Assembly: GCA_001275005.1 (NCBI GenBank)
Contig: JWZX01003158.1
Location: 1-61,938 of the forward strand
DNA from: Chrysochromulina tobinii
Lineage: Eukaryota
DNA length: 61,938 bases
Reading direction: 5' to 3'
A program made the translations under genes and the position numbers. The notes beneath the pieces are model-generated. The model searched no databases. It was not told where the DNA came from and saw only the letters and a list, made by a program, of their open reading frames with translations. Shown one piece after another: positions 1 through 47,289 of the stretch; the stretch's first letter is position 1, and every line of letters begins with the position of its first letter.

Positions 1-255
1 CCTCGACCGCTGCCATCTCGGCTGCCGCCTTCTCAGCCGCCGCCGCCTCGGCCGCCGCCTTTTCGACCGCCGCCTTCTCGGCCGCCGCCGCCACAGCCGC
101 CGCCGCCTCTGCTGCTGCCTTCTCGGCTGCCGCCTTCTCAGCCGCCGCCGCCTCGGCCACCGCCTTTTCGACCGCTGCCTTCTCGGCCGCCGCCGCCACA
201 GCCGCCGCCGCCTCTGCCGCTGCCTTCTCGACAGCCGCCGCCTCCTCAGCCGCCT
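1..255 (-). repeat. Coding low-complexity repeat (AAAEK/AAVEK-type units)
   Basis: Reiterated gccgccttctc/gccgcctcg units translating to AAAEKAAVEK on the minus strand. Confidence 0.8.
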
Positions 256-3200: not shown

Positions 3201-6200
3201 TCATCTGCCGAGTGCATGACGGCCACCTCGAGGATCACCGAGCCCGCACGGCGCGAGAGCACCACGAGCTGCGATGGGTGCACGCCACCGTGGGCGGCCA
3301 GCCGGGCCAGTACCGTTTCCTCTGCCTGCGGGCTGAACTTGCCCAGCTGCCCCTCGAGCTTGAGTCTGAGAGTGCCAGCCTTCACGGTGGCCGTCAGTTC
3401 GGCCACCGGCGACTCGGGCTGCGCTGCATTCACAAGCACCAGCGATGGGGCCTCTGACGGCTGCCCCGGCTGCGCTGGAAGGGGGGCTGGTTGGGTGGCA
3501 GAAGGGGCGGGCGCCTTGGCGGCCGCACGTGCCTCCCACGCCTCCGCCTTGGCTGCCGCCTCCTCGGCTGCCGCCTTGGCCACCCTCGCAGCTTCGTCAG
3601 CCAAGCGCTGCTGTCTTAGCATGGCCACCTCGCTCAATCGCTGCTCACGAAGCTCCGCCACTTTGGCGCTGTTCACCGCCGCGGGCGGTGTGTACCCCTG
3701 TTTCGTGGCACGAACAGGTTTGATGGCTTCGACGGGTTCCGCGGCAACGATGGCGACACGAGCCGCATGGATCGCCACCGAACGCGTCGGCGAGGAGCGC
3801 GGGTTCTCAGGTTTGGCGAGCGTGGCGACAGCTGAACTGTCTGCGACGGCCTGCATGTAGCGTGATGCGATGGCTGGCGAGGAGCGGGAGGCGCCCAGAC
3901 GAGGGCGCTCATCCCCATCGCGTCTCTCTGGGCTCATTGGCGACGTGACGTTCGCATCGGGTGAGGTGATCGGGCGAGATCGGGCGAGATCGGGCGAGGT
4001 GACATTTGTCGAGCTCGCGGCGACCGCCTGCATGTACCGCGAAGTGATGGCCGCCCGGCGGTCTGCCTCCGCTTGCCCTGGCGTCGTGTCGGGCGTCGTC
4101 GGCTCACCGGGCGCCTTTGCTGGGGACTCGTGCACCGCCTGACCCGCCAACTTGGCCGCTTGGCGTGCCATCTCCGACTGGCCCGCCCGTTCCACCGCCG
4201 CTCGCGCGCGCTTCTGCTCCCGTGCCAGAGCGCGCGCCGCGGCGTCAGCGCGCACTTTGTCGGCGAGGGCAGCGGCCTCATCGTCACCCAACGCCGCATC
4301 AGCCTGCGCGCCGCCCGCGGGGCTCTGCACGGCATCGGCCGAGTCGGCTGCGAGCCAGCTCGCGAGCGTGACAGCCGGCGCCGGGGCCGGCGCGCGCAGT
4401 GCGAAGCGTACCCAGAGCTGCCAGAGGTGATAGATCTGTGCGCGCTCGAGGGCGCGCACGAGCATCGTACCTACGAGCGCCTGGCCGCGCCGGAGAAGGA
4501 ATGCAGCCTTGCGCTCGGCGAGGTCGAGCTTGGCCGCAGGCTTGCGCATCTGCTGCGACGTGAGCCGTGCCACCTCGGCCTCAAGCTTCTTTTCGCGCTC
4601 GGCCGCCGCCTCGACCTGGCGCGTGAGAGCGGCCATGCCTTCGGTGAGCTTGGGTGGCGGCGGCTTCGGCCCACGCACGCGCTCGAGGGTCGCTTCGGTG
4701 GCCGCTCGTTCGGCCGCCGCGTGCTCGTGCACCTCGAGCTGCGCACGGAGCGCCGCCTCCTGCCCCCTCGCGCCCGCAAGCGCGAGGCGCATCCTATCGA
4801 GCTCGGAGCGGAGCGAAGCACCCTGCTCACGCTCGGCGAGCAGCACCGCTGCGTCGATGGCCTCCGTTGGCGGCTCCGCAGCCTGGCCCACACGTGCAGC
4901 CTCGCGCTTCTCGTCCGTCACGCCCGCGCCGGAGGAGGAGGGCCGTGCAGCCTCGAGCTGCTCGTCCGCGTCACGCCGAGCTCGCTCGGCACGGCGCAGC
5001 TGCTCGCGCACCTTCTCGAGGTCGTCCTGGAGCGTCTGTACCTGCTCCTCCAGAGCTGCCTCGCGCAGCTGCGCAGCATGTCGCTCCATCGTATGCTCGA
5101 TGAGCTTCTCACTCAGACGCTCCTCGACCAGCCGCTCAAGCTCAAGCTCGAGGGCGCGCTCCGTCTCGGCATCCGCCTCCGACTGCGCCAGGTCCGCCCC
5201 TGGGTCCGCCTCTGGGTCCGCCTCCACGCCCGCCTCCTCGTACGCAACCGCCTCCGCCACCGCCTCCGCCACCGCCTCCTGCGCTTCCTCCGCCGGCGCA
5301 GACTCCTCATGCGATCGCTTCGGCACGGCTTCCAGCAGGGAGGCGTCCGCCATTGAGCCCGAGGCGGCCGCGCCGATGGCGGCGTCGAGGCGAGCGATCT
5401 CCTCTTGCTGCTGCGCCAGACGCTCTCGCCACGCGTCCTCGCTCGCCGGTAGACCCTCACCACCGAGTGGCACGCCACCGAGTGGTACGGCCTCCGCGGC
5501 AGGCATCGGCAGTGTGGCGAGGGTGGTGCCCGTGGCCACGTCCCGAAGCAGGACGCGCGCGGGCTCCGTGGCGGCGTCTTGGTGTTGAACTTCGCTCGGC
5601 TGGGGGTCAGTGGACGCATCCATCTGGGGCACAGTGCCACCGAGCGTCCTGGCCGTCTTCGCGGCCGCCTCCGCACGCGCCTCCGCCACCATCGCGCGCT
5701 CCTCGGCTCGCTGCACGCGCTCCTCGAGCTGAGCACGTGCCTGAAGCTCAGATTGGATCTCGGCGAGCGAGATTGGATCCGAGCCCAAGTCCCGGAGCCG
5801 TTCGGTCTCGACACGGCGCTCGACACGGCGCTCAGCGGCCTCGGCCTCATCGCGCCGTGCCGAGCGGTCCGAAGCGAGCGCCCCCTGCTGCGCGACCAGC
5901 GCGCCATTCTCCTCTTGCAGGCTCTCATGCGCCAGCACCAGTGCGGTGAACTTGGTCGCGAGGGACGTGTACTTGGCAATCTGCGCCTGATGCTTGCTGC
6001 TCAGCTCGTCGTGCAGGACGGCCAGCTCCTCGTGCGCGGTGCGCAGCGTCGCATGCTCGCCGCTCAGGCTCGCGTGGCTCGCGCGCAGCGTGGCCAACTC
6101 CTCCGTTGCGGCCGCCACGAGCACCTGCGCGCGCGGCTGTGCCTCACTCACACTCGCCAGGTGGCTCGCCGCCGCCGCCAGCTTCGCGTTGAGCTCTGCC

Positions 6201-9200
6201 TCCGCCTCCGCCGCCGCATCCTCCGCCTCGGCCAACTGACGGACATGCTCGCTCGCCATCTCGGGCTCGATCTGGCGCAGCTCGGCGAGCTTTGCCATGA
6301 GCTGCTGCTTCGCATGCCCGACACCCACCTGCAGCTCCGCCTCGTTCGCCGCCTGGGCGCGTAGCGTGAGAAGCTCCTCGCGCAGCGCGCGGCTCGCGTC
6401 GCGCTCGGCCTCCAGAGCCTTGAGGGCCGCGGCGAGCTCCTGCTTCGAGAGCACGAGCTGTTCGTGGGAGCGGCGTGCTACCGCCGTCGCACGCGAGGCC
6501 TCCTCGACGAGCACGCGCCGCTCCTCCGCACTCCCCTCGTCCGCGGCGTCGCCTCCGTGCAGCTTTGCGAGCAGCCGCGACTCTTCCGCGTCGGCCCGGC
6601 GTAACCGCTCCTCGTAACCGTCGGCCCGGCGTAACCGCTCCTCGTAACCGTCGGCCCGGCGTAACCGCTCCTCGAGCGCGCTCGCATGCGTGCGCGTGAT
6701 CCGCTCGATGCGTTCCTCGAGCGCCGCGCCCCCCGGCGCAACCAAGCCCTCTGGAGCAGCTTCGCTCGTCGGCGCCGCCTCGGCGAGCGGTGCGGCCGGT
6801 GCTGCGGCGGGTGCTGCGGCGGGTGCTGTGGCGGGCGCGGCTGAGGGCGCGCCCACGGCCCTGGCTGCAAGCTTCGCCCGAAGCTGCGCCTCAAGTCTCG
6901 TCACTTCCTCGAGCTGGGCCGCCGCCTCGGCCTGAGCGCACTCCAGAGCCGCGCGCTGGTCGGCCGCCGTGCCGCGCTCGTCGGCGCGCTCCCTGAGGAG
7001 CCTGTCGAGCTCGCGCTGCAGATACGCCTCGCGCTCCGTCGGGAGGGTGCGGGCCGCTGCCCTGTCCGCGATGGCCGCGGCCTGGTTGCTCGAGGCCGGC
7101 GTCTTCGCCTGCGCCGCCGACACGGCCTCGACCGCCATGGCCTCGGCCTGCGCCTGTGCCGCCTGTGCCGCCTGCGTCGCCTGCGCCGTCGCACGCAACG
7201 CCTCCGCCTCGGCCTGCCTCGCGCGGCGCAACTCGTCCGTTGCTCGGTGCGCCTCCTCCCTGGCGGCGGCCACCTCGGCCGCCGCAGCCGCCCGGACTGC
7301 CTCCACCTCGGCCGCCGCGGCCGCTCGAGCATCGGCCACCTCCTGGGCCGCCTCCTGCGCCGCCTCTATATTGGCCAGCTGCGCTGCATCGGCCGCCTCC
7401 TGTGCCGCCTGTGCCGCCGCCTGCCATGCACCTGCCGCCTCGGCGTGCGCCTCAGCCGCCTCTGCGCGCGCCTCAGCCGCCGCCACGTCGAGCCGGAGCG
7501 CTGCCGCCTGCTGCGCCGCCTCATGCGCGCGCGCCGCTTGGGCCGCTTGCGCCGCCTCCGCCGCGCGAGCCGCCAGGGTCGCCTGTGCCGCCGCACGAAA
7601 CGCCGCGATCTGTGCCGCCTGCGCGGCCTCCGCCTCGGCCTGCGCCCGCAGCGCCTCCGCCCGCGCCACTTCCGCCTGTGCCGCCTGCTCGACCTGAGCT
7701 TCCTCCGCCGCCTCGGCCGCTTCGGTCGCCTTTGCCGCAGCCTTCGCCGCCTGTTCCGCGGAGAGGGCGGCAGCCTCGGCCTCGGCGGCCCTCGCCGCCG
7801 CGGCGTCCGCCCCCTCTTTCGCCCTCGCCGCCGTGCCCACTACCTCAGCTTCCAATTCGGAGAGGGCCGCCGTCATCGCGCGCGCTGCGGCCTCTGCCTG
7901 CGCCACCGCCCTCGCATGGGACTGCGCCTGCGCCTTCGCGGCCTCGACGGCGACCGCACTTGCCGCCTGCGCCGCGCTCGCCGCCGCCTGCTGCACTGCC
8001 TCCTCGCTCCGCCGCTCCCGCTCTTCGAGACGAAAGGCGAGCTCCGCCTGGGCTGTGCGCGCCACGTGCGCTGCGCGCGCTGAGCCTTGCAGCTCGCTCA
8101 CCGAGCCTTTTAGCCGCTCGAGACGCGCGTGCAGCGCGTGCGAGTGCAACGCGTGCAAGCAGCGCCGAAGCAGATCATCCTCCTCTGTGCGTACCGTCAA
8201 GTCACCCAACGCGTCTGCCATCTGCTCCCAGCGCACCTCCCAGCGGCGCGTCACACTCTCTTGTTGCTCTCGCAGCTCGACGGTGCGGCGCACCACCGCG
8301 CGCCGCATGGCCTCGACGGTTGTACTGAGCTCCTCGATGCGCCCTCGCGCCGCGAGCAGCTCGGCCTTTGGCACGAGCGCCGCCGAGGCGCCTTCCGCGG
8401 CAGGCGCGGCAGGCGCGGCGGGTGCGGCGGGTGCGGCGGGCGCAGCGCGCGCTACCCTGCTCGGTACCCTGCTCTGTGGCTCGTCCTCGAGCGCGAGCTC
8501 AATCTCAGCCAACCTCGCCTCGGTGATCGCGTCGCGAGTGTCCTGCCGGGCGCCTCGCTCATCGGAGAGGCGCGCCACGCGCTCCTCGAGGTACACACGC
8601 CGCTGCCGTTCGGTGGCGAGTTCGGATGCGAGAACCGACTCCGCATCGGCGATGCTCTGCCGATGCTCGCGCAGCCTCGCGTCCGCCGCACGCGCAACCT
8701 TGACAGCCTCGGCCGACACGAGCTCAGCCTCCCTCTGACTTGACTCGGCTTGCTCATTCCACACCTCCTCGCGCGCCAGCAGCTCGTCGCGCTCGTCGGC
8801 CATCGCAGCCTCGGCCTCTTCGGCCGCCAACGCCCTCGCCTCGGCCGCCTGGGCGCGCGCCTAGGCGATCTGGATCGCCGCCTCGAGCTCGCGCAGCCGA
8901 AGCTGGTCGGCCGCGGCCAAGCCCTGCTCGGTGAAGGCGAAGCGCACCTCCATCTCGTGGACGACTCTCAAAGACTCTGACGCAATGCCACGATGCTCCG
9001 CGAGCTGTGAATGGAGCTCAGCCACCTCGCTCGCGTGCGCCTCCATGACTGACGCGAGCCGCGCTTGCTGCGCCTGTAGCGCGGCCGCCGCCTCCGCCTC
9101 GAGCAGCACCAGCTGCTCCGTGTGCTCGCGATCACGCTCGGAAAGCGAGGCCTGCAGCTCGAGCTTCTGCAACGCGGCCATCCGACCCGCGACCGCGTCC

Positions 9201-11901: not shown

Positions 11902-14900
11902 CTACACCCCGGTCACGCGCTCTCCAAACCTGTCGGGCTGCGGCAGGTAAAACTCGTCGTCGACGCCGTCGACGACGAGCGGCGCGTCAGGTGCGGATGC
12001 CTTGGCATAGACGTGTGTGACGAGGCGGCGGCCCTCGGGCGCGCCGGGCGCGACGTGCGCGTCGAAAAAGTGGAGCAGCTGCTCGCGCGTGACGCCGCGC
12101 AGCCGCTTCGCCGAGCGCCACGGACGGCCGTAGTCGTACCGGCGCGTGACGATCTCAGTCCAGAGACGGCTTGCCTGCTGGCCGAGCCGCTGGTCGACGT
12201 CGGTCACCTGCGAGGCTAGAGCCTCACGCACGGTCTTGAGTTCGCTCTCGGGCAGCTGCGCGAGCGTCGGTCGGAAGCTCTGGAGGAAGGCGTCGATGCG
12301 TCGCTCGACCTCGGGTGGAGGCTGGATGGCCGACTGCACGGAGAAGACGAGGGAGCGCACGCCCTCGGATTCGGACACAGACGACTGCACGATGTAGCCG
12401 AGCTGCTGCTTCGTGCGCAGCTCGCCGTACAATGGCTGCTCGATCAGCTGGCTGAGCACAGCGAGGCACAGCCAATTGTCGCCATCTTCCTTGCCGACCT
12501 GACAAAAGACCTCTGTGGCTGAGTTGGCTTCGGCCGCGTTGGGCGCCACGTACTGTCGCAGCGTGCGCCCCACCGGGACGATGCGCACGCGCCGGCGCGG
12601 GATGCGCTCGGGCGCGAGCGCGCTGCTCGCGGGCAGCGCGGCCGTCACCTTGGCGGTGATCGCCTCTGCGTCCGCTGCGTCCAGGTTGCCCGCGAAGAAG
12701 CACTCAAGGAGGCTCTCCGGGAGAAGAGCGCCTTGGAAGCGTCTCACGTCGTCGATGCTCGCCTTCGAGACGGCGGCCTGCTCGGACGGGTCGCAGATCT
12801 AGTCAGTGGCAACCAGAGTGGCACACAAGGCCAATCCGTGGCAATCAAGGACATCAGTGCGATCACCTGCAGCTGCTCGATGGGATAACGCGGGGTCTCG
12901 AGCGCGAGCTGCCGGTAGTACGAGCACAGCCCGACAGGCTGGCGCTTCTCGAAGTTGGCGAGCTCCTGTTGCAGCGCCTCGCGCGTGCGCTCGAAGACGC
13001 TCGGCTCGAGCGCGGCCGTCTTCACCTGCGCCGCCACGTACTGGAGCAGCTCGGGCAGGCGCGAGCTGTACCCGCTCGCTGTCAGGAAGAGTCCGTTGTA
13101 CTCGGCGCCTACGCCCGCCCCGAGACCCGCGAGGCCCGCTTGGTAGGTCGACTCCTGCAGCGTGTCGCCGAGTGTCGACTGGAAGAGCTGAGCGGTGATC
13201 GACGCCTCCGCCGATGCATAGAGGAGCGGTGAGCGGAAGAGGAAGAAGGCGAACGCGCGCGGCCGCTTGAACGTCGCATCCTGCAGAAAGTGGAGAGTGA
13301 GCCCAGGCCGGTTGGCAAGCACCGTCGGCGCCACCTCAGGGCGCGCCGGCTGGATGCACGCCGCCCTGGCGCCGCCGCATTTGAGCGCAAAGTCGGTCGG
13401 GATGAATGGGTTGGGGAGCGGCGGGCGGAGCTCGGCGGGCGAGATCGTGGCCTCCCAAGCCTCCACCTCGCGCGTGAGCGGCAGCGTGGCGTACTTGGTG
13501 CCGTAGATGGGCTCGGTCAGGCTTGCGGGCACCTCGAGCTGCTTGGCGACGAGCGTGATCAGCGCGTTGCGCGGCTGGCGTGTCCAGTCCAGCATGAAGG
13601 CCGCGCCCACTTCCGTGCCTGACCCGACCAGGTTGGGACCGCTGATCCAACGGTCGGGCTCGAAAAAGGGCAGGCTGCCGCTGATGTCGGTGGCGAAGTC
13701 GCTCGGGCGCGAGGGCTCTGCATACTCGAAGCCCGTCCGCGCCATCGTGCGGTACTCTTCCACTACGTACGGCGGCACGCCCGCCTCGCTCAGGGTACGC
13801 AGGTACGCGAAGAGCAGGCCGCTCACGTCACGCCACTTGGTCAGGCCGAGGGGCGTGAGGTCGATGGAGACCGAGAGGATGACGAAGGCGCGCGAGAACT
13901 CCTCGACGTTCGCATCGAGCCCGTTGGCGAGCCCCTTGCGCTTGAGCAGCGGCAGCAGCCCGCCCGGCCCGCGGTTGCGCACGAGCAGCGACCACACGCC
14001 CTCCGGCTTTGCGTCCAGCCACTCGTTCAGGTTGGTCACCGGAAGGCACCATGCGACCTTGAGCTCGCGCATCTCCTTGACGGGCACCATGAGCGTCGCC
14101 CTCGGCGGCTCGCGCGCCGGGTTGAACGGCAGCGGCAGCCCGTCGTACGCGCTTGAGGCGCCTGGCAGAGCAGGGCGCGCCGCGGGCACCGCCGCAAAGT
14201 GGCGCAACGCGAGGCTCTGGAGCTCATCGAGGGGTTGCGGACCGACGAGCGCGAGCGACATCTGGTCGGCCTGGTAGAAGCGCCGATGGAAGCTGAGCAG
14301 CGCGTCGCGTGTCGCGTCGTCGCCATCGTGCAGCGTGCGTCGGTTGCCCGTGCTGAACTTGGAGTACGGGTGGTTCGGGTCCGCGCGTAGCTTGAACAGC
14401 TCCTCGTACCGCCAAAAGTCCGACTGCAGGTTCTTCGAGTGCTCGGACTCGATGGCACTCACTTCGCGGCCGGTGGCCGCCGGCGTGAATAGCGGCGCAG
14501 TGAAGAAGCCAGCGAAGCGCTCGAGCGCGCCGGGCAGCCCCGAGCCCTGCACGTCGAAGAAGTAGTTGGTGTCCTCGCTCGCAGTGTATGCATTATTGGA
14601 GCCACCGTAGTTGGCGATGTACTGCTCAAACCCACCCTCTTCAGGGAAGGCTTTGGTGCCGAGAAAGAGCATGTGCTCGCAAAAGTGGGCAAGCCCGGGC
14701 AGCGAGGGGGGGTCACTCATGGAGCCGACCAGAACGTCCATCGACGCGGCACCCTTGGCGGCGTCCGGGTCCGAGGCGAGGAGCACGCGCAGGCCGTTGG
14801 CGAGCACGAGGCCGCGAAAGCTACGGCGGTCGAGTGCCGCTTTGGCGACCGAGTAGACGAGCGTTCCTGGCGGCCCGGCGGCCGCAACAGCGCCGCCAGC

Positions 14901-20288: not shown

Positions 20289-20676
20289 GGGTTTGTGGGG
20301 TCCCATGATTTCGCAGGTGGGTGTGTGAAATCACAGGAACCTATGAATTCACGCCTACCCGCGATTTCACAGGGGAGTGCGATTTCACACTAAGGCCTGT
20401 GATTTCACAGGAGGGTGTGATTTCACGCCCGGGGGTGTGATTTCGCAGGGGGCTGTGATTTCACGCCCAGGGGTGTGATTTCGCGGGGGGCTGTGATTTC
20501 ACGCCCGGGGGTGTGATTTCGCAGGGGGCTGTGATTTCGCGTCCGGGGGCGTGATTTCACAGGGGGCCGTGATTTCACCCCCGGGGGTGTGATTTCATGG
20601 CTTCTCGAAATCACACCCCCCCCTGTGATTTCACACACTTCTGTGATTTCACACCCCAACCTACGAAAACGCACCC
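20289..20676. mobile_element. Putative non-autonomous DNA transposon (MITE-like) filled with TGTGATTTC[A/G]C repeats
   Basis: TA|GGGT...ACCC|TA ends and imperfect ~28-bp subterminal inverted repeats (tttcgcaggtgggtgtgtgaaatcacag versus the reverse complement of 20641-20668). Internal 19-20-bp units; no convincing coding capacity. Confidence 0.6.
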
Positions 20677-30288: not shown

Positions 30289-32648
30289 ACGGCGCAAGCC
30301 GATGGCCGAGGCAGCCGAGGACGACGTTGCGCAGGGCATCGCGTCAGAGGGAGTGGGTACAGTCGGAGCGCCGGCGGAGGTCACGGGCTGGTTCGCGGAC
30401 GTCGTCGGCGCGCGAATGGTGAGGAGCTCCGTCCATGGCCTTCGTTTTCGAAGCTCGGCGGTCGCGGAGTGTGCACGGCCCGTTCGTTGGCGGCCGGCCT
30501 GTTCGAATGCATCGCTCTCTCGACTTGCCAAATTAGGAAGTTCCGCTCCCGAGGCACTGTGCCTTAGCGCGTCGGCGCCCCCTCCCAACTGCTGCATCGC
30601 CGCCGCAAGGACGGCGAGCTGCGCGTCGTCCATCGGGCGAGCATGCAGCGCCGCTGCAAGGGCATCCTCAAGTGCCGCAGCCCCCGCATCGAGCGCCGCC
30701 TGATGTTCAAGCTTGAGGCGCGTCACCTGTGGGGAGAGGGGCGGGGCGCTGTGGTGAGCCCTTGCATGCGCGGCTCCCGCATCGAGCGCCGCCTGATGTT
30801 CGAGCTTGAGGCGCGTCACCTCCGCCAATCAGAGGCAATCAGAGGCAATCAGAGGCAATCAACGAGACTCACCTCCGCCTCGTGGCGCTCCTTGAGCTCC
30901 TTGAGCTCCTGCTGACGTTCCCATTCGAGCTGTGCTCGTATCTCAGCCTCGGCGCTCGCTTGCGTGTGGGAGCGCTTCATCAATCGCACCGCCTCCGCCT
31001 CGATCTCTGCGTGGTCGAGCATCGCAGCCGCGCGGGCGGCGGCCACCTCCTCGTGGCGCTGGAGCATTGATTCGCCCTCGACCCGCGCGCGGTCGAGGGC
31101 CTCCTCCACCAGGTTGTGCCGCAGCTCCTCGAGCGTGCTTGCATGCGCAGCCGCATGCCGCATGGTCGACTCCTCAGCCATCCCTGATTTGGTCATCCCA
31201 GCGAGCGTGCTTCCTAATTTGGCACGCGCAGCCCCAGTTTGGGTGACCATGCTTCGCGGAATGACGAGGCCGCTCGCCGCCGCGACGGCGCCCAGTAGCG
31301 TTGGGGTTGACGAACCTCCGAGCCACTGCCGAGCAGAGGACGGCTGCGCTCCGGCCGAAAACCCTGTGGCGGTCGCCGTGTTGGGCGCCGTGATGGGCGC
31401 TTCCTCCCTCGCCTTCGCCCTTGCGAGGGCGTCGAATCCCGTCGGTCTCTGATTGGCATGTGATTGCCTCTGATCGCCTCTGATTGCAACGGCGTCGAAT
31501 CCCGTCGGCCTCGCAGGCTGGCTACTAGTTTGGATAGCGGCTCTCAGGCCAGAGGGGCCTCCAGCGGCCGCCGCGGGCACAGCGCTGAGCACAGCGCCCA
31601 TAGGTGCGGGTGCTGGTGCGCGCTCGTTCAATGGCGGCCGCCCTGGCAGAGCTTCAGCAGCCATCGAACGTGCGTCCTCGGCGGGCATCGTGCGCAGCAC
31701 GATGAGGCTGAGGGCGGCCGACTCGCTGCTGCCACGTGAGTCGAGAGGACGGCGGGCCTCCCCTAGAACGTACTTGGCCAGCGCCGGGGAGAGCAGCTTG
31801 CCCGTTACTCCAATGATCGCATCACCCACACGGAGCTGGTGCTCGGGCGGGCTCGGCGCGCCCGCGGCTTCGCCGCCGCCGATTCGGAAGCGAGAGGGCG
31901 ACCCGAGCGGCGCACCGGACCGAAAGGCACTCGTGTTGCGCATTGCATCTTCCCAAGGGAGAGTGGAGCCGTTGCTTGGGATGTCCGCCGCCTCTGAGTA
32001 GACGACGAGCAAGTCGCCCGCGAGGGGCATGCGCCGCTTCTCGAGGCACGAGGCGACCGACTCGTGCGAGTCCCGCCGAATCTGCAGGCCCTCGACAAGC
32101 GCCTCGGCCAGCCCGATTTCGACGCCGGCCAGGCTCGCCGAGGGTAGCGTGATGACTCTCGTGAAGGGCGTGTCGGCGTGCCCAAAGCCGCGAGCAGCCG
32201 ATCCGGCGAGCTCGTTGGCGAGCAGCATGTGGACCGCCTTCCACGCTGCAAGGCCACCGTCTTCGCGCTCGAGTGAGCCTCGCCCGAGCAGGGCTGGGAG
32301 TAAGAGGCTGATCATCAGGGCGCTCCGAGGAGCGTCGCTAGCCGAAGGCGCGACGAGGGTGAAGAAGCTCTCGAGAAGGTGCGCCTTGAGCGGCGTGACG
32401 GAGCGCATCACACCGGAGACGCGCGTCTGTGCGGAGGTCAGACCATCAGATGGCGTGACTGCAATCAGCGACGCGGATGCCGCCTTGTCGAGCACAGGAT
32501 CCGTTTCGCAGTCCTGCAGGGTACTCAGGAGGGATGCCGCCGCCTGCGTACGGCCGAGCAGATTTACATGCAGCCCGCTGCTGATGTGCTCATCAACCGC
32601 GGCCGCGAGCAGTGTGGATGAGCTGGACGAGCGTACAAAATCGGGCAT
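29650..32648 (-). CDS. Hypothetical protein with a PDZ-like segment, coiled coil and poly-Ser tail; intron 30727-30872 and probable intron near 31449-31511
   Basis: ORFs 30849..32711 and 29650..30828 join in phase 0 (ERHEAE|VTRLKL). QLRVGDAIIGVTG...LSLIVLR resembles a PDZ C-terminal half. The 3' end is uncertain. Confidence 0.65.
30727..30872 (-). other. 146-nt composite intron: donor module + copy of the exon-exon junction + acceptor module
   Basis: GTGAGTCTCGTT(GATTGCCTCT)3GATT-GGCGGAG/GTGACG...GCCGCG-CATGCAAGGGCTCACCACAGCGCCCCGCCCCTCTCCCCACAG. Confidence 0.85.
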
Positions 32649-35345: not shown

Positions 35346-35575
35346 CACTGAGTTCAAAATCAGGTGGTGAGGATAGTGTGTGAATCCAGAAAGAATACCC
35401 TCCCCTACCCCTTTGGGTCAACCACTGAGTTCAAAATCAGGTGGTGGGGATAGTGTGTGAATCCAGAAAGAATACCCTCCCCTAGCCCTTTGGGTCAACC
35501 ACTGAGTTCAAGATCAGGTGGTGGGGATAGTGTGTGAATCCAGAAAGAATACCCTCCCCTACCCCTTTGGGTCAA
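35346..35575. repeat. 77-bp tandem repeat, 3 near-identical copies
   Basis: cactgagttcaa...tttgggtcaac starts at 35346, 35423 and 35500. Confidence 0.92.
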
Positions 35576-38232: not shown

Positions 38233-41200
38233 TCAAGCTTTCAACAAGGCATCGGGCGGAGCAACATGTGAAAAGGCGATGATTTTTCCATCGGAACGCC
38301 CTCGCAGACGAGAGTCGGGAGCGTGCGAACGAGAGTCATCAATGGGCGAGGCGCTGCGGCTGCCCCCGCTTCTGGTGAGGCCCTCAACCCCGCTGCTGCC
38401 GCTGTGGATGCTGGAGGAGTCATCTTCCTCCATAATGCCCTCCAGCTTGGCCGTTGCCCGCAAGAATGTGGCACGCAGTCTGGACTGATGTGAACTGCTG
38501 CTAGTGTGCCGCAAGTACCGCGCGAGCTCAATGCAGGTGTTGAGCTCGGCCATGTATTCCTCGCCCATTCGCACCAAGACCGGGTTCGAGACCGGCGGCG
38601 TCGTCACGAGCTGACCAGTATCTGAAGCCGCCTTGCGCCTAAGTAGGTCCCAACCTGCTTTGTCAGCCAGTTTGGGCCATTTGTTCCTTGTTCTGGTGAG
38701 CTTGCGGACGACCCAATCAATGCCAGAAAGCCGAGTATCAATCTTGCGGTGATTGGGCACCAGATTACGGGCCTTGGCTGCCATCGCGCTCCTCGCGGCG
38801 GCCGCAGCCGCTCGTCGAGCCTCGAGGATTTCATCCTTAAACTTCGTGTCGTGCTTGAGCGCATCGTCAATGGTTTCGACGTCGAGGGTAGTCAAATCGC
38901 AGTAGGTCACCGCCTTGGCCGTCTGCGTGCAGCGCGGCTGCATCTTGGCAACGCAGCTGGCATAGTAATCGTTGAAACCGAAGTTGTCCGTGTTGGTGAG
39001 GTTCGTTTGCATCCCGTCGTGCGTGGAGGTCTGAACTATGCCCTTGTTGATGAAGAAGCAGGCGGTGAGCGGCGTGCCCTGCATAGTGATAAGTTGATCC
39101 GGGATATAGACGCAAGCCTTGAACTCGGCGATGAGCGCAACGAGCGACGCATTCGACACGTTGTGGAAGAAGGGACATCTGGACGTGAGTCGACGGGAGG
39201 TGACGAGGTCCAGTTGCGCCGAGAGGTTGAGGGGCAGCTGATCAAACATGTTCATGTCCTGCAACGCGGCCGAGGAGGTGAGGAGGTATTCGTAGTACTC
39301 CATGATACGTGCGCGCAAGGCGGGCGGGACGGCCTTGAGCACGAGGTACGTCTTGATCGAATCGAGCTGCTTGCCCGTGAGCTGTCTTTTCGCATTCATC
39401 GCGGCGAGCGCTTGGTTGAGCGTAGAGATGATGTAGGCGTTGAGCAGCAGGCCGATGAACATGCATGCGGTCGTCAGGAGCGACTCCGTCACGGTCAACG
39501 GCTCAATGTCGCGTGGCATCAGCGAGGTCACCATACCAGCTCCCCAAGCGAAAGAGTACGTGTACTTCATCGTGACCGATGCGTCGTTCCTAAGCCAGTG
39601 GGGTGGTTGCCAGTTGTTCTCGCCCGCGTGCCACGGCGAGGCCAACCACGATCCTGGCTCAGGGCCCAACTCCTCCTCTGACCTCTCGATGTCAGCGACC
39701 ATCCACCAGAGACAGCCGAGCAGATGGCAGCAGAAGACGACGAGGGACAGCAATTTCACCACGGTAATCGCGTTGGGGTCCAAACCCAAATCTTCCAACG
39801 CTTCCAAGGACTTTGCGAGCCTCCGCATGCGAAAAAGCTTTGTGAGCTTTGCCATCCGCACGAGCCGCAGCATGCGGTTGGCGCGCGCGGCGTCCGCACC
39901 GCCCGACTGGGCTTGCTGCATTTCGGCTATCTGCGCATCACCGTAGGGATTGTCGGGATTCGTAAGCATGGTCACGATGTTGATCGGGAAGGAGCCGATC
40001 GCGTCCATCACAAAGGAACCATGCACGTATGCCTTGGCCACCTCCCAATCATCGGCGACGAGATGACCTTCGCGCATGAAACCTGTGCGGAAGTTGAGGA
40101 CAATGTCGATGATGAAAAACAGGTCGACCAACGCGTTGCCCCAATACCATTGCAGGTAGGAGATGCAATTTCCGCGAAACGAGATCGGGCCGTAGGGGTC
40201 CTTAGGATTTGTGCACATGGCTTGGACCATGTCCGGCTCGAATGCAATCTCGAGGGGAACGGCGATGCCGCAATAGAGGATGCCGATGGCGAGCAACACG
40301 TTCCAACGGGAGCGGAAGGGTGATTCAGGGGGGAGCACTTTGAAGCAGCAGACGCTACAGCAGCCACGAAAGGTCTTGAACTGCTCGGGGATGTACCAGA
40401 GGAGCGGCTGGACAACGTACTTGTTAATGTACGAGTTGCGCCACGTGGAATCGCCCGTGCCGCCTACTCTGCCTCTGGATTGCCGCCCCGCCCGAGTCCT
40501 GGTCTTTTGGTTGTTCTGACGCTGATCGTCTAGACCCTCCGGCTCCCACCACAGCTGAATGCGCACCTCGCCTTGCGTGTCGAGGACCACGGTCATGTCG
40601 CGGCGCACCTCGTTGCAGTATGTGTGGTCGGCCAGCTCAACGTCGGCGCGGCCAAGGAAATCATCTTTAGAGCCGCCGAGCCGATACAGATCGAAATCCC
40701 ACACCGATAGCTTAAGGGGGTCGGCAATAAGCTGGCCGAGGACGCCAGAGAAGGCAAAGACTTCGTCGACCCACACGGGGTTGAGAGTCTTAAGCTTCTT
40801 GCGTGATCGCTGCTGCTGCTGTCCCAATGCTAGCTTGACATCTGGACACGCGGTGGACGAGAGAATCGAAACACAGGTCGTGCGCACGTGAGCAAACCAG
40901 AGGGCGGATGAGCGAGGGCGCTGTTCGACTGTGAGATTAGTACAAGGGTCCGAAAGGCCGTTGGCGTCAGCCGAGCAGAGGCCCTTTGCTGAGAGAAGCT
41001 GCAAGTAAAGCGTGCCCTCCGACTCAAGGTCGGCGATTGTGGGCACCTTCCGCCTGTTATTGTTGACATACTCGGTAAGCTTGCCACGCACATCTTTGAT
41101 GAGGGCTTTGACGTTCGGATCGCCCTCGAGCATCTCCCAGGTATAAGTTCCGTCGAGCGGCGATTCAGCAGACTTTTCATCAGCGTTGAGTTCAGCGGAC

Positions 41201-41760
41201 GGCGCAGCAGCAGCAGCAGCAGAAGCCACAACCATGTTCATGATGGATTTCTTTCTTGAGAGGCCCCATGCTGGCGTCTTTGTGGGACTCGATTCTTCGA
41301 ATAAGCTGGGCGAGCTCGGGAGCGAATGGACTGAAGGATCTGGCGACGCAGTTGGGAACACGGCGATACAGCCGTCTTTGCCGCCCATAGCGTTTTCCAG
41401 GCGCGCAACATCCCTCCGCAAGTCGCCTGTGACGATTGCATGTTCGCGGAGCGTCTCACCGAGCTGCTCCTGTTGCGCGGACATCGTGGCCCATGTCAAC
41501 GCCAGGCGCTCCTCCAATTTTTGAGTCGCCGCCAGCGCGGCAAGCACACGCGCCTCATAGTTGGAGTCCATCACAACCCCGCGCGCCGCAGCGCCGGGCG
41601 CCGCAGCAGTGGAGCGTGCTGAGGAGGAAGAGGAGCTGGTTGAGGTCAGTGAATCGTTGACCATCTGCCCTAGCTGCTTATGCGCTCCCTCGAGGATCTG
41701 ATGGTCGACCTCCAGCCGCCTATGAAAGTCGTGCATCCGTTTCCGCAGTTCCAACTCCAT
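38233..41760 (-). CDS. C2-domain + 6TM cyclic-nucleotide-binding-domain (KCNH/HCN/CNG superfamily) ion channel; in-frame intron 40842-40943
   Basis: C2: DANGLSDP|YVKL after splicing, KTLNPVW and LSVWDFD...DDFLG. Channel: VDLFFIIDIVLNFRTG, S4 RMLRLVRMAKLTKLFR, C-linker VPPALRARIMEYYEY and a CNBD-like region. The start codon is uncertain (the ORF is open to 41916). Confidence 0.88.
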   Translation of the reverse strand: MELELRKRMHDFHRRLEVDHQILEGAHKQLGQMVNDSLTSTSSSSSSARSTAAAPGAAARGVVMDSNYEARVLAALAATQKLEERLALTWATMSAQQEQLGETLREHAIVTGDLRRDVARLENAMGGKDGCIAVFPTASPDPSVHSLPSSPSLFEESSPTKTPAWGLSRKKSIMNMVVASAAAAAAPSAELNADEKSAESPLDGTYTWEMLEGDPNVKALIKDVRGKLTEYVNNNRRKVPTIADLESEGTLYLQLLSAKGLCSADANGLSDPCTNLTVEQRPRSSALWFAHVRTTCVSILSSTACPDVKLALGQQQQRSRKKLKTLNPVWVDEVFAFSGVLGQLIADPLKLSVWDFDLYRLGGSKDDFLGRADVELADHTYCNEVRRDMTVVLDTQGEVRIQLWWEPEGLDDQRQNNQKTRTRAGRQSRGRVGGTGDSTWRNSYINKYVVQPLLWYIPEQFKTFRGCCSVCCFKVLPPESPFRSRWNVLLAIGILYCGIAVPLEIAFEPDMVQAMCTNPKDPYGPISFRGNCISYLQWYWGNALVDLFFIIDIVLNFRTGFMREGHLVADDWEVAKAYVHGSFVMDAIGSFPINIVTMLTNPDNPYGDAQIAEMQQAQSGGADAARANRMLRLVRMAKLTKLFRMRRLAKSLEALEDLGLDPNAITVVKLLSLVVFCCHLLGCLWWMVADIERSEEELGPEPGSWLASPWHAGENNWQPPHWLRNDASVTMKYTYSFAWGAGMVTSLMPRDIEPLTVTESLLTTACMFIGLLLNAYIISTLNQALAAMNAKRQLTGKQLDSIKTYLVLKAVPPALRARIMEYYEYLLTSSAALQDMNMFDQLPLNLSAQLDLVTSRRLTSRCPFFHNVSNASLVALIAEFKACVYIPDQLITMQGTPLTACFFINKGIVQTSTHDGMQTNLTNTDNFGFNDYYASCVAKMQPRCTQTAKAVTYCDLTTLDVETIDDALKHDTKFKDEILEARRAAAAAARSAMAAKARNLVPNHRKIDTRLSGIDWVVRKLTRTRNKWPKLADKAGWDLLRRKAASDTGQLVTTPPVSNPVLVRMGEEYMAELNTCIELARYLRHTSSSSHQSRLRATFLRATAKLEGIMEEDDSSSIHSGSSGVEGLTRSGGSRSASPIDDSRSHAPDSRLRGRSDGKIIAFSHVAPPDALLKA

Positions 41761-42388
41761 CTTCGCGCGGGTTCCTGGGTGCACGACGGAGAATTGGGTC
41801 TCGAGGCGACAAACGCGCCGCGCGTTTCTTCGGAAGATGCGTTTTCGTCGATGAGGCGAACAATCAAGAACTTCACGTACACGTTTACTTGCTCGTCCAC
41901 CGTCCCCCGGAGACACTTGATTGTGGTCTCTGAAGTGTCTCGAGATCCTCGAGGTATGAGGAGGCAGGCAGTCAGTCAGTCGGTCATGTCGGATGACGCG
42001 GCCACACGCCCGCGCTCACCAAACCTCCGTCTCAAAGCACAAAATAAAGGACGGCTCCGCTGGGCTGCCCCCCCCGGTCACCCACAAGTAGAAGTACTGA
42101 GTACCTCCAACCTCGCTCGCGTTTAATATTACACAGCCCAACACAGCCCCGGAGTGCGGAGAGCCCGCAGCCCCCCGCAGCCCCGCACCCCGCAGGGCTG
42201 TGTTTATATAGCGGAGTCAGTCGACGACCGCTGCCATCTATCCGTGGGATGGAAAGTGTGTGTCCTGATCGCTATATTTATCCCATAAACTCTTCCGCCA
42301 TAGGTCTCTTTGAACCGCCGTGCTAGACGAGGGCGAGCAGGGCCCATGGCGAGGGGCGGCGCGCAGCCAATGTCACTGTTGTGTCGTG

Positions 42389-43930: not shown

Positions 43931-44464
43931 TCACGGCAGCAGCTTCACCTTTGCGCGCTGTATGGCGCGCTCCGCAGAAGTGGGCAGGGCGATATCGCCT
44001 TGGCGCCAGTGGCGCGCCGCCTGCACCTGCGCCCGCGCTGCGTCCGCCATTGACGCCGCGCGGCGTGCGTCCTCCGAAGCTGCCGCAGCACGCAGCGACG
44101 CCTTGGCCGCCTCATGCGACGCGCGCTGCGCCGGGTGCGCGCGCACCGCGGCAGCGGCCGCAATCTGGTTGGCGGCCAGGGTGAGCCCGTAGGCAGATTG
44201 CGTGTCGCTGCCGCGCCGCTGCGTGGGTGACACGACGGCCGCCGCGTCGCCAAATGACCTCATGAGCTCCTCGTTCGAGAGTATTTCGAGCTGCAGATCG
44301 GCCCGCCAGTCTTCGAGCTCGACGCCCAGATCGAGGCCACCCGGCTCCGCGAGGCGAAAGGGCACTCTTTCGGAACGGCGCGTGGACGCCGCCGCAGTGG
44401 ACGCTGGCGCACCGCCGCCGGCCGCAGTGGACGCTGGCGCACCGCCGCCGCCGCCACCACCGCC

Positions 44465-44501
<37 letters not shown>

Positions 44502-47095
44502 CCGCTGCCGCCGCCGCTAAACGCCGCTAACTTACACCGCCTCGCGCCGCAATTCACCGGGTCGCGCGCCGTATCGAGCGTATGCATGCCGCCGCCATTC
44601 GCCTGGGTGAGTGACCGGAGTGCTGATGGGCGGGATGCCAGCTCGGTGGCGGCGGCGGCGGCGGCGGCGAGTGCGACCGGATAGCCCACCGGATAGCCGT
44701 TGCGCCGCGCATCCGCCTCGTCACTCCCACGGGTGATCGAGGCGACCCCGTCTTTCCTGGTCACGTTGCTGCGGCGTGGCACAGGCGCATGCATCGGCGG
44801 CACAGGCGCATGCATCGTGGCGTGCGGCGCGCCGAGCGCCGGAGCGGTCACAATCGGCGCCAGCTCCTGGAAGGGCATCGAGATCCGCCGAAGCACCGCA
44901 CGACTGCCTGCCCGCGTCTTGAAGGTGAGCGAGAGCAGACCTGCTTTGCTCGAGCTCCTCTCGACCTTGTGCCGAGCACGCCCTTCAGCGGCAGCGGCGG
45001 CGGCGTCGCCGCCGCTGACATCGCCTGTGCTCGGGTCGTTCTCCGCGCCGTCATCAGCTTCGTCAAACTGCGTGGGTGAGGGGAGTTCAGCACGTAAGAA
45101 CTCGTGCCACTGCTCCACATCCACGCCTTCCTTGTTGGCCTCGTCGTAGAGCTCATCGATGAAGACGTTCTCGATCTCGTACCCGCGCGAGGCGAGAGCG
45201 AGCTTACGCGCCATGGCGAGCTCGTGGAATCGTACGTACCGCTTGGCCGCTTCAGAGAATCGTCCGCGGCCCAGGCCCGCACCGCCGCCGCCGCTGCCGC
45301 TAACGCCGCCGCCTCCTCCACCTCCGCCGCCGCCTCCGCGCAGCACCTGGTTCCGCTGAGTGATGCGAGCTAACAGGCCGGCACCGTCGTCGGTGCTGCT
45401 AAAGCCGCCGTCGTCGCCGCCGCCGCCGTCGTCGCCGCCGCCGCTGCCAAAACTCATCTGGATCGTACGAGAGAGCTCCTCCTGCTCCTCCGACGCTGCG
45501 CGTAGCTGCTCCACGCGAGCATGAGGCAATCAGTGGCAATCAATTGCAATCAGAGGCAATCAACGACACTCACCTGCTCCGCGCGAGTCGCGAGCATGAG
45601 GCAGTCAGTGGCAATCAGTGGCAATAACGACACTCACCTGCTCCGCGCGAGTCGCGAGCATGAGGCGTTGCCACACGGTGGTGACCCGGAGCGTGCGGTT
45701 GCGGTTGCGCAGCGTCGTGTTCTCGGCTTCGAGCTCGGCGATGCGCTGAGCCATCGGCCCACCGCCGAGTGCGCTCACCACTTGCTGTATGTGGCTCGGG
45801 TGGTCCAGACCCTGGCCATCCCGCGCATGTACCTCCTTCCTGAGCCGATCGATCAGCAGCCGCGCCGCGCTCGCCTCCTCGCGAGCGAACGCGAGCTCGC
45901 TCTCGAGGTGCGAGGCGTCCAGTCGACCGAGGAAGGAATGAGGGCGCACCACCACGCTCACCGCCTTGGCCCGCACGGCAAACCGGAGCGTGCCGATCGT
46001 CTCGTCGAGGTTGGCACTCTCCGTGCGCAGCGTGACCACGACGGCGCTCGCCGTATTGCCGCCGAGCGACTCCTGCAGCAGGCGGGTGAGTTTGCTGTCG
46101 CGGTAGGGCACGTGCGCGGCGCCCTGGGCCATGCAGCGCACGCGACGTGGCCGCCAGCCGCTCGATGACGGTGCCGAGGGCGAAGAGGGACGTGTTGATG
46201 TTCCGCGCCTCTTCACGCCGCTGCGGCGCCGACGAAGGGCCTCTGACCGACTCGACATAGTACGACTTCTTGGAACTCTCCATCCCTGCGAGGTCGACCA
46301 ACGAGAGCTTGCCACTTTCCGCGCCGCCACTGTCCTGGCCACTGCTCACGTCGTGCAGCTCGAGCACAAAGAGTGCGTGCGAGCGCGACGAGCGAGCATT
46401 CATCTTCATCGCGGCGACCACACGCAGCTCGTTGCCAACGCCGCAGGCAGTCCATGACCTCCGTCTCGGAGGTGACGACCTCGCGAACGAGGCCTTCCAC
46501 CACGACACGCCGCTGTGCTGTCTCGCGCAGCACGAGGCCCTTGCGCCCACCCAATAGATCGTTGCACTGGTCATTGTACACCTCGACGTACGAGGCCATG
46601 ACGACGAACTGGGACGCCTTCGGCGCGCTGCGCAGCGAGGCGAAGATGTCGGCGATCGCACGCGGTGCGAGCCCGTGCAGCGTTACGTCCGACCCGCTCC
46701 AGTCGCGTATGACCTCCTCTGGACCGAACATCGTGTACGTCTTGCCGCTGCCTGCCGGAACGAGAGAGGCCGCAGAGCAGTGGCGCGTGTGTGGGGTCAC
46801 CGAGACAGAGGCGAGAGGCGGTCGCACGTAGCGTACCTGTCTGCCCGTATGCGATGATGCACAGATTGTAGCCATGCATAACGCGCGCGACGCGCTCGCG
46901 GCCCAAGATCTCATAGACTTCCTCTTGTGCTGCATCCGCATCCCACACCCAGTCCAGAGAGAACTCGAGGTTGCGCACCTGCACAGTCCGCTGCTGATCG
47001 AAGCGCTTCTTGACGATGATTGAGTCGTCGCGAGGCGCGGATGAGTCGAGGTCGGGGCGCAGCCGCGCGTACACGCCCACTGCTTCTTGGGCCAT
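43931..47095 (-). CDS. Kinesin motor protein with long low-complexity tail; introns 46752-46836 and 45506-45637; two +1 frameshifts (about 46437 and about 46125)
   Basis: VYARLRP, YGQTG|SGKTYTM (P-loop split by an intron), SYVEVYND, NARSSRSH, VDLAGME, INTSL and HVPYRDSKLTRLLQESLGGN are distributed over three frames. Confidence 0.9.
45506..45637 (-). other. 132-nt intron made of two stacked units (donor module + copy of upstream exon end)
   Basis: The exon end GCCTCATGCTCGCGACTCGCGCGGAGCAG (45638-45666) is copied exactly at 45574-45602 and partly at 45506-45527. Each copy is preceded by GTGAGTGTCGTT plus GATTGCC repeats. Confidence 0.88.
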
Positions 47096-47289
47096 GCTCG
47101 GGCGTGGAGGGAGGGGTCCAGCGCAGGCCCGCCAAAGGGACTATGTCCCCATTGGTCAAGCTCGACTTTTGTCGTGAAAGCGTCGAAATGTGCACAACAT
47201 GTAAAGACCTCTTTCTACATGTAGACTGAAGTGACTTGTCTCCCTCGCAAGTTCGGAAAATCCTGAACCTCAGGCACGAGCATCGTCGA

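What the first reader, a model, noticed from the sequence alone, without database searches (positions are those of the whole stretch)
45506..45666. Intron built from a repeat 'donor module' plus a duplicated exon end, stacked twice (kinesin gene)
Seen in the sequence, on the minus strand: the exon ends ...GCCTCATGCTCGCGACTCGCGCGGAGCAG. The intron reads GTGAGTGTCGTT, GATTGCCACT-type repeats and an exact 29-nt copy of that exon end. It then repeats GTGAGTGTCGTT, GATTGCC repeats and a shortened copy ending GGAGCAG. The 3' splice site is therefore supplied by duplicated exon sequence, and splicing restores the frame exactly (TRAEQ|LRAAS). The repeat unit GATTGCCTCT shares GCCTC with the start of the exon copy, a microhomology junction. 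Inference: intron gain by adding a short templated repeat cassette at an exonic CAG, then re-annealing upstream by microhomology. This differs from TIR/TSD-type Introner transposons. Introner-type intron gain is known in algae, so novelty must be checked.
Basis: partly seen in the sequence, partly recalled or inferred. Interest (0 to 1): 0.85.

Follow-up and report, generated by a model that had tools for sequence, protein, structure and literature searches.

The report
Introns that copy half of themselves
This spliced intron in an algal kinesin gene belongs to a family of introns built from a shared repeat-rich front end plus a duplicated piece of the host gene, and they likely arise when a broken gene copies half of an existing intron, which would let introns breed new introns without an ordinary transposon.

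Summary
A 132-nt intron (45506-45637, minus strand) consists of two stacked units, each a GTGAGTGTCGTT/decamer-repeat module followed by a copy of the exon end. An RNA contig splices exactly there (1 of 4 runs), other assemblies carry the stack, and a sister lineage's kinesin reads through without it. It is a family: 17 of 19 module sites carry an upstream-end copy versus 1 of 338 mismatched pairs (copies 5-40 nt), and one site has an empty allele. Both junctions show microhomology. Four units carry fragments of another locus's duplicated exon, so the donors are existing introns, not a fixed small-RNA or telomerase-like template. A mirror class copies intron 3' ends; the scan noted that class earlier in this genome (e1-2577349). 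One array sits antisense and in frame, so insertion looks strand-blind. Best reading: template-switch copying during DNA break repair, filtered by splicing (0.55); retroposition of intron RNA is the main rival (0.3). No enzyme was identified and no whole genome was available. New variant of introner-type intron gain; not found described in ten literature searches.

The parts
45638..45666 (-). Last 29 nt of the kinesin exon; the segment that is duplicated (left copy of the target-site duplication)
45574..45637 (-). Unit 1 (64 nt): 5' splice site, short decamer array, exact 29-nt exon copy ending CAG directly before the GT of unit 2. Likely the younger insertion; in allele L016 its module shares a 39-nt prefix with a module in another gene but only 12 nt with unit 2
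45506..45573 (-). Unit 2 (68 nt): 5' splice site, decamer array with branch-point-like CTRAY motifs, shortened 22-nt exon copy whose AG is the 3' splice site used
43931..47140 (-). Host kinesin gene (approximate limits): motor domain, an ordinary 85-nt intron at 46752-46836, the module intron, and a long last exon. Two 1-nt window errors at 46126 and 46437
30820..30872 (-). Second donor-type unit in the window (53 nt): same module, 7-nt exon copy ending GAG, next bases GTGA. Splicing not seen among the listed RNA joints
30727..30819 (-). Acceptor-side unit (93 nt): starts with a copy of the downstream exon start (29 nt at 97%) and ends in a pyrimidine tract and CAG; no decamer array; appears absent in allele L009
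31421..31512 (+). Decamer array in antisense orientation to the 621-aa minus-strand ORF, flanked by a 29-nt direct repeat (90%), period 63 nt, in frame and stop-free, spanned without a gap by RNA contigs

Best explanation
The kinesin intron is a spliced, twice-stacked member of an intron family whose units likely form when a broken gene end copies one half of an existing intron and then re-anneals a few dozen bases back on its own gene. Inferred steps: (1) a nick or staggered break leaves a 3' end, typically after CAG or just inside an existing GT; (2) this end primes on another intron's exon/intron junction through 3-7 nt of homology; (3) synthesis runs through the 5' splice site and the decamer array, sometimes on into the donor's own exon copy; (4) the strand slips off and re-anneals upstream of the break by 2-7 nt of microhomology, and fill-in duplicates 5-40 nt of the target; (5) selection keeps products that splice, because the array supplies branch-point-like motifs and the duplicate supplies the AG, or that happen to be in frame. 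The same event on the other strand gives the mirror acceptor class, and repeated events at a junction give stacks. Shown: the anatomy, splicing at this site, an empty allele, microhomology at both junctions and captured donor fragments. Inferred: breaks, a DNA rather than RNA template, the polymerase, and the order of steps.
For: Family anatomy: 17 of 19 sites score >=10 for an upstream-end copy versus 1 of 338 mismatched pairs; lengths 5-40, median 23. Empty allele: L007 has one copy of 23 nt and no module where L030/L053 have the 75-nt unit. Precision: the flanking halves map to adjacent positions of conserved proteins, IFT140 1232-1291 then 1292-1353 and P5CS profile 558-606 then 607-676. 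Ragged junction: overlap >=3 nt in 9 of the 12 rows without filler (20 rows, 18 sites) versus 0.11 expected. Precise junction: 8 of 12 CAG sites continue with G (background 26% of 246 coding CAG) and 3 of 12 with GT (5%); the 3 non-CAG sites examined share 3-7 nt with the module start. Donors are existing introns: of 342 ordered pairs, 5 share >=9 nt (0.9 expected) and 2 share >=11 nt (0.03 expected) between one unit's junction and another locus's exon end, each starting at the donor's own repeat junction. Mirror class: 8 of 19 loosely chosen 3' ends carry a downstream-exon copy versus 0 of 320. Strand-blind insertion: antisense in-frame array at 31421-31512. Insertion at existing 5' splice sites (L024/L041, L026) and stacks at 5 of 19 sites. 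Each of 12 units examined has 2-7 CTRAY motifs, the nearest 10-47 nt from the 3' end.
Against: Nothing here separates a DNA template from intron RNA; a circular or unspliced intron RNA would give the same junctions. Homology of exon ends beyond CAG, which a genomic template might favour, is seen in only 1 of 5 candidate donor-recipient pairs (L033/L008, 8 nt). No polymerase or repair gene was tested and no whole genome was held. The 19 sites were selected by one exact 24-nt pattern and the representatives were picked by hand; 2 of 19 (W30, L010) score within the null range. The single empty allele could be a precise loss between the direct repeats or an assembly collapse. The splice joint was listed in only 1 of 4 RNA runs, and none was listed for the 30872 unit. 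The antisense case is one locus, has no empty allele, lies in an ORF with no Pfam match, and RNA libraries can hold DNA. Other arrays cluster near modules and all on the same strand (23 in 40.8 kb of flanks versus 4 in the 62-kb window by the same script); random breaks alone do not explain this clustering.
Confidence: 0.55

Rival explanations
1. Target-primed reverse transcription of intron RNA (excised, circular or unspliced) by a LINE- or Penelope-type enzyme acting in trans. The nicked strand primes inside the decamer array (donor class) or at the terminal CAG (acceptor class), and the second nick sets a variable target-site duplication.
For: Variable 5-40-nt duplications with microhomology are typical of non-LTR retroposition (established knowledge, not tested). 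The fixed ends coincide with intron RNA ends. It also explains captured donor fragments and either orientation. Full-length intron circles exist in yeast and human cells (PMC10996645 passages). About 5% of classified introners are non-LTR derived (PMC12130899). Exon homology beyond CAG is absent in 4 of 5 candidate pairs.
Against: No poly(A) or other constant tail in the units read. The antisense insert has both ends inside the array. No reverse transcriptase among the 41 of 102 window ORFs scanned, which is weak evidence for one 62-kb window.
Confidence: 0.3
2. Spliceosome-guided half reverse splicing: a foreign lariat's 5' end is joined to an exon end in RNA or in R-loop DNA, then fixed by repair.
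For: The precise end is a splice junction; several insertions hit existing 5' splice sites, including a non-AG one (L024/L041); arrays cluster within genes on the sense strand. Proposed in general form in PMC10996645 and PMC3443670.
Against: It predicts whole introns, sense orientation only and no target duplication. Here half-introns with 5-40-nt duplications are the rule and one array is antisense. Homology to GTGAGTG explains the hits at existing splice sites more simply.
Confidence: 0.06
3. Plain tandem duplication of exon sequence makes the intron (Rogers model), and the repeat array is added later by conversion or microsatellite growth.
For: Tandem duplication is an accepted route (PMC3443670). 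Some stacks vary in copy number with identical units (1, 3 or 4 at the L006 site), which fits unequal exchange.
Against: It needs AG|GT in the duplicated segment, but 9 of 12 CAG sites lack GT next. The empty allele lacks both duplicate and module. It does not explain captured fragments of other genes.
Confidence: 0.04
4. A fixed small-RNA or telomerase-like template adds the cassette de novo, or a classical MITE-type Introner inserts it.
For: The first 16-24 nt are constant among the sampled sites, though that was the search pattern. Marine Chrysochromulina MAGs have Introners that carry the 5' site and co-opt the 3' site.
Against: Captured exon fragments from other loci, variable repeat number and variants, several different 5' ends, no inverted repeat, and variable rather than fixed duplication length. 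No Rfam match in the window.
Confidence: 0.05

Closest known systems
Introners that carry one splice site and co-opt the other from a target-site duplication: Chrysochromulina MAG family (Gozashti 2022, passages); Symbiodinium and Polarella classes (Roy 2020, 10.1101/2020.10.14.339549, parts 1-2 of 4)
   Same: A family of similar short introns at unrelated exonic sites; precise splicing; one splice site taken from duplicated target sequence.
   Different: Published duplications are fixed per class (3, 4, 5 or 8 nt) and the elements have two defined ends, often with inverted repeats. Here the duplication is 5-40 nt, one end is ragged, there are no inverted repeats, both junctions show microhomology, donor exon fragments are captured, and a mirror class and stacks exist.
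Unclassified Emiliania huxleyi introner families in Gozashti 2025 (PMC12130899 supplement file 8): fam11 (carry 5', co-opt 3') and fam24 (co-opt 5', carry 3', noted '10bp terminal direct repeats')
   Same: Haptophyte, both polarities, short, mechanism listed as unknown.
   Different: Only 5-6 copies each and no mechanism given; I did not see their sequences, so kinship is untested. The same survey lists 0 families for Chrysochromulina tobinii.
Intron gain by staggered double-strand-break repair in Daphnia (Li 2014, PMC4202315 passages; reviewed in PMC3443670)
   Same: New introns with a direct repeat of the adjacent exon end at the far end; break repair inferred.
   Different: The repeats there are 4-12 bp (33 cases), and the passages read name no donor family. 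Here the insert is traceably copied from other introns and forms a self-propagating family.
Templated insertions of alternative end joining (SD-MMEJ, polymerase theta) and patch-mediated duplications in rice (PMC7407515 passages)
   Same: A templated insert with microhomology, tandem duplication, and sometimes ectopic or multiple donors.
   Different: Described as mutational scars, not as a source of an intron family; the enzyme is untested here.
Intron gain by tandem genomic duplication (Rogers model; PMC3443670)
   Same: Duplicated exon sequence provides a splice site.
   Different: It needs AGGT and has no foreign insert; here the other splice site and the branch-like motifs are imported.

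Membership tests
Introner (functional definition) | Family of sequence-similar introns at unrelated loci | tested here: met
   19 distinct sites from 55 loci, in unrelated genes such as kinesin, IFT140 and P5CS
Introner (functional definition) | Precisely spliced out | tested here: met
   RNA joint 45505/45638 in 1 of 4 runs; contiguous protein positions at two other sites
Introner (functional definition) | Recent gain shown by empty sites | tested here: met
   L007 versus L030/L053; read-through kinesins on 5.9-30 kb contigs of a sister lineage. Direction (gain or loss) is inferred
Introner (functional definition) | A transposable element with two defined ends and near full-length similarity among copies | tested here: not met
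   The 3' end is ragged and 5-40 nt of each unit is locus-specific
MITE/DNA-transposon Introners | Terminal inverted repeats | tested here: not met
   0 inverted pairs in 45490-45680
MITE/DNA-transposon Introners | Fixed short target-site duplication (2-9 nt) | tested here: not met
   5-40 nt, median 23
Non-LTR (SINE-like) retroposed elements | Variable target-site duplication with microhomology at the 3' junction | tested here: met
Non-LTR (SINE-like) retroposed elements | Constant 3' tail shared with a partner LINE, and a reverse transcriptase in the genome | tested here: inconclusive
   No poly(A) in the units; the decamer array could serve as a tail; no RT in 41 window ORFs; whole genome not held
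Reverse-splicing intron transposition (fungal ILE type) | Whole intron inserted seamlessly, no duplication, sense only | tested here: not met
   Half introns with duplications; one antisense array
Tandem genomic duplication (Rogers) | Duplicated AG|GT supplies both splice sites, no foreign sequence | tested here: not met
   GT follows only 3 of 12 CAG sites; a foreign module is present
Break-repair templated insertion | Microhomology at both junctions and an identifiable template | tested here: met
Break-repair templated insertion | Dependence on a repair polymerase and DNA breaks | not testable with these tools
   Needs genetics or induced breaks

The most novel reading that the evidence does not exclude
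Introns in this alga reproduce with no transposon at all. Host repair synthesis copies half of an existing intron into a break, the decamer array acts both as the slippage and landing pad and as a branch-point array, and the duplicated target completes the intron. Each new intron becomes a donor, leaving a readable chain of descent in captured exon fragments. This would be a self-templating route to genome-wide intron gain that whole-length similarity screens for Introners miss.
Probability: 0.45. Interest if true: 0.88.

Novelty: new variant of a known kind. Interest (0 to 1): 0.72.

Why it matters
How new introns arise in bulk is a long-standing question, and the leading survey calls Introner transposons the only mechanism able to explain bursts, with about 72% of families unclassified (PMC12130899). 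This family spreads by copying half-introns, records donor-to-recipient chains in its junctions, is polymorphic among strains, and occurs in an organism with RNA data from mixed cultures. That makes 'DNA repair versus RNA retroposition' directly testable from one good genome plus population data. It may also explain repeat-filled haptophyte introns (recalled for Emiliania, not verified here) and why similarity-based screens could miss such families.

Tried and rejected
No whole genome was held and metagenome contigs could not be opened by handle, so there is no genome-wide count. Pattern scans of viral contigs and prokaryote genomes found nothing. Laying three environmental DNA runs that hold almost none of the stretch, plus one culture run, gave no empty kinesin allele; those tables were swamped by GCC and decamer repeats, and I do not use the summed depth there as a copy number. 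No RNA joint for a recursive intermediate (unit 1 removed alone) was listed. No Rfam family in the window. No reverse transcriptase or transposase among the 41 of 102 ORFs scanned. Hairpin potential of 15 reconstructed empty sites did not stand out (mean -10.0 versus -8.9, sd 3.9, GC not matched). The first null contained same-locus pairs and was replaced after collapsing 21 rows to 19 sites (L009 with L001, L039 with L022). The flanking-repeat scan of all arrays had a noisy null and is used only descriptively. One of four exon halves tested against NCBIfam gave no match and its partner only weak ones (L020). The species could not be named: the nearest named proteins are haptophyte. Misassembly was rejected. 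Local duplication as the origin of the kinesin stack is judged less likely than two insertions, though low-complexity sequence weakens that test. PMC2784329 and PMC4580454 passages say nothing on repeat-bearing nuclear introns; the Emiliania genome paper was not held.

Full report
1. Observation. The minus-strand sequence is as described. The exon ends at 45638 and is followed by a 132-nt GT..AG intron (45637-45506) made of unit 1 (64 nt: module plus an exact 29-nt exon copy) and unit 2 (68 nt: module plus a shortened 22-nt copy). There is a perfect 41-nt direct repeat at spacing 64 and no inverted repeat. One RNA contig (run X16) skips exactly these 132 bases; the other three RNA runs show no such row among those listed. 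Three other assemblies are identical over 1648 bases including the stack, and a diverged allele (L016) is stacked too. The two frameshifts in the window's kinesin are window errors. The host is a haptophyte-type alga by its nearest named proteins (Prymnesium, Diacronema, Emiliania, Calcidiscus).

2. Is the intron recent? A kinesin 94% identical over the queried part (P0002) reads TRAEQLRAAS without a break. Eleven of the 13 members of its cluster read through; the other two end in the translated module. Eight of the read-through proteins are about 1000 aa and lie on contigs of 5.9-30 kb. The longest-contig lengths 30,390 and 29,901 recur for the neighbouring gene, and 30,390 also for ClpP, which suggests genomic contigs. 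One member has a non-native N-terminal extension typical of plain ORF calling. More distant orthologues also read through. I infer an intron-less site in the sister lineage and outgroups, but I could not fetch that DNA, so spliced gene models are not strictly excluded.

3. It is a family. One metagenome scan with a 24-nt module pattern returned 55 loci, which collapse to 19 insertion sites (two allele rows merged). Seventeen of 19 carry a copy of the sequence just upstream of the GT at the far end of the unit, scoring 10 or more, against 1 of 338 mismatched pairs. Copies are 5-40 nt, median 23, and 15 of 19 sites follow CAG. Units fall between codons of conserved proteins with nothing gained or lost: IFT140 1232-1291 then 1292-1353, P5CS profile 558-606 then 607-676. 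L007 holds an empty site with a single 23-nt copy where L030 and L053 hold a 75-nt unit; loss or assembly collapse cannot be excluded for one case. Each of 12 units examined has 2-7 CTRAY motifs, the nearest 10-47 nt from the 3' end, and the reading frames listed hit a stop within 7 codons if unspliced. The array therefore plausibly supplies the branch point (inferred).

4. Junctions. At the ragged junction the repeat overlaps the start of the copy by 3 or more bases in 9 of the 12 rows without filler (20 rows for 18 sites, L010 left out), against 11% by simulation. At the precise junction 8 of 12 CAG sites continue with G and 3 of 12 with GT, versus 26% and 5% for 246 coding CAG, and the three non-CAG sites examined match the module start by 4, 7 and 3 bases (15 sites examined). 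Both ends therefore look primed by microhomology, although selection for a good splice site could also favour G after AG.

5. The donors are existing introns. Several units have filler between the repeat and the copy, and the filler matches the duplicated exon of another locus. L045 carries 13 exact bases of the IFT140 exon end plus the donor allele's repeat variant; L035 carries 11 from L030b; L030b carries 9 from L005 (which L035 inherits); L020 carries 9 from L011/L034. Of 342 ordered pairs, 5 reach 9 nt (0.9 expected), 2 reach 11 (0.03) and 1 reaches 13; the 9-nt cases alone are weaker. This gives a chain L005 to L030b to L035, possibly through unsampled intermediates, and rules out one fixed template. 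In the kinesin stack, unit 1 of allele L016 shares a 39-nt prefix with a module of another gene but only 12 nt with unit 2, which favours two independent insertions that re-annealed at the same GCCTC. Other stacks have identical units in 1, 3 or 4 copies and may have grown by unequal exchange. Five of 19 sites are stacked, and at least two more units (L024/L041, L026) sit exactly at an older intron's 5' end.

6. Mirror and antisense forms. In the flanks, arrays ending in a fixed ...CATCAG-type 3' end are preceded by a copy of the downstream exon start: 8 of 19 loosely chosen candidates versus 0 of 320 mismatched pairs (examples). In the window, 31421-31512 holds an array antisense to a 621-aa ORF, between 29-nt direct repeats 63 nt apart, in frame and stop-free, and RNA contigs span it without a gap. 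This is the product expected if insertion ignores strand and selection does the rest, but it is a single case with no empty allele. Against pure randomness, other arrays cluster near modules: 23 in 40.8 kb of flanks, all on the same strand, versus 4 in the window by the same script, which missed the antisense array. The three other RNA-supported introns of the laid stretch have no module and, by eye, no exon copy.

7. Mechanism. The best-supported model is copy-and-re-anneal. A free 3' end primes on another intron's splice junction, copies through the decamer array, slips off and re-anneals behind the break, duplicating the target; splicing-competent or in-frame products survive. I give 0.55 to a DNA template during break repair, because the process is mirror-symmetric, appears strand-blind, has no constant tail and can have both ends inside the array. 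I give 0.3 to target-primed reverse transcription of intron RNA, which would leave nearly the same footprint; exon homology beyond CAG appears in only 1 of 5 candidate pairs, which does not favour DNA. Reverse splicing (0.06), plain tandem duplication (0.04) and a fixed template or MITE (0.05) each fail a tested feature. That new units are copied from existing introns with a target duplication holds under both leading models.

8. Comparison. Known Introners that co-opt a splice site have fixed duplications: 4 nt in a Chrysochromulina MAG (10.1101/2022.06.06.494994, passages) and 3-8 nt per class in dinoflagellates (10.1101/2020.10.14.339549, parts 1-2 of 4). The 2025 survey (PMC12130899, parts 1-2 of 7; 12 of 14 supplements searched) lists no family for C. 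tobinii and two tiny unclassified Emiliania families of opposite polarity, one with 10-bp terminal direct repeats. The decamer was not found in the supplements searched (the 2022 file was cut when stored), and the two unsearched files or uncut data might hold it. Daphnia neointrons have 4-12-bp exon repeats attributed to staggered breaks (PMC4202315, passages). Templated insertions with duplications are known repair scars (PMC7407515, passages). Reviews and related papers were read in part (PMC3443670 parts 1-2 of 6; PMC11282704; PMC10996645; PMC8469720). Ten full-text searches listed no paper describing half-intron copying with variable duplications and captured donor flanks; I saw most results only as listings, and subscription journals are not covered.

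9. Verdict. A real, spliced, probably recent intron and a clear example of a self-propagating intron family. It works like an Introner but fails the tested features of DNA-transposon Introners, reverse-splicing elements and plain tandem duplication. New variant of a known kind, interest 0.72. The boldest reading, transposon-free intron reproduction by host repair, has probability about 0.45.

Noticed in passing
window 46126 and 46437: Single extra bases that break the kinesin frame are window assembly errors; they are absent from 4 RNA runs and 3 other assemblies.
   Followed up: yes
protein P0136 (kinesin cluster): It lacks the first intron but ends in the translation of unit 2's module, so it is either a one-unit allele or a recursive-splicing intermediate.
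   Followed up: partly
window 12778-12866 (-): A likely 89-nt intron in an M16 peptidase gene with a decayed decamer array and a possible remnant of an exon copy; perhaps an older family member.
   Followed up: no
L006:1500-1680: A donor stack whose last copy ends in the acceptor-class 3' end, followed in this allele alone by a further acceptor unit; both classes accumulate at one junction.
   Followed up: partly
L005, L013, L040 flanks: Some genes hold several repeat introns within 3 kb, including stacked acceptor units and other 5' variants of the module.
   Followed up: partly
window 31422-31515: The target of the antisense insert contains a 13-nt imperfect inverted repeat; hairpins were not enriched at 15 other empty sites.
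   Followed up: partly
window 20363-20650: A 38-nt tandem array of GTGATTTCAC-type units in an apparently intergenic stretch, unrelated to the decamer family.
   Followed up: no
window 35346-35575: Three near-perfect 77-nt tandem copies; RNA contigs show loose ends here.
   Followed up: no
window 2-8860 (-): An open frame of at least 2953 codons, rich in alanine repeats, with no Pfam match, running off the window end.
   Followed up: no
window 38236-42015 (-): A cyclic-nucleotide-gated-type ion channel with a C2 domain and an RNA-supported 102-nt intron at 40842-40943.
   Followed up: no
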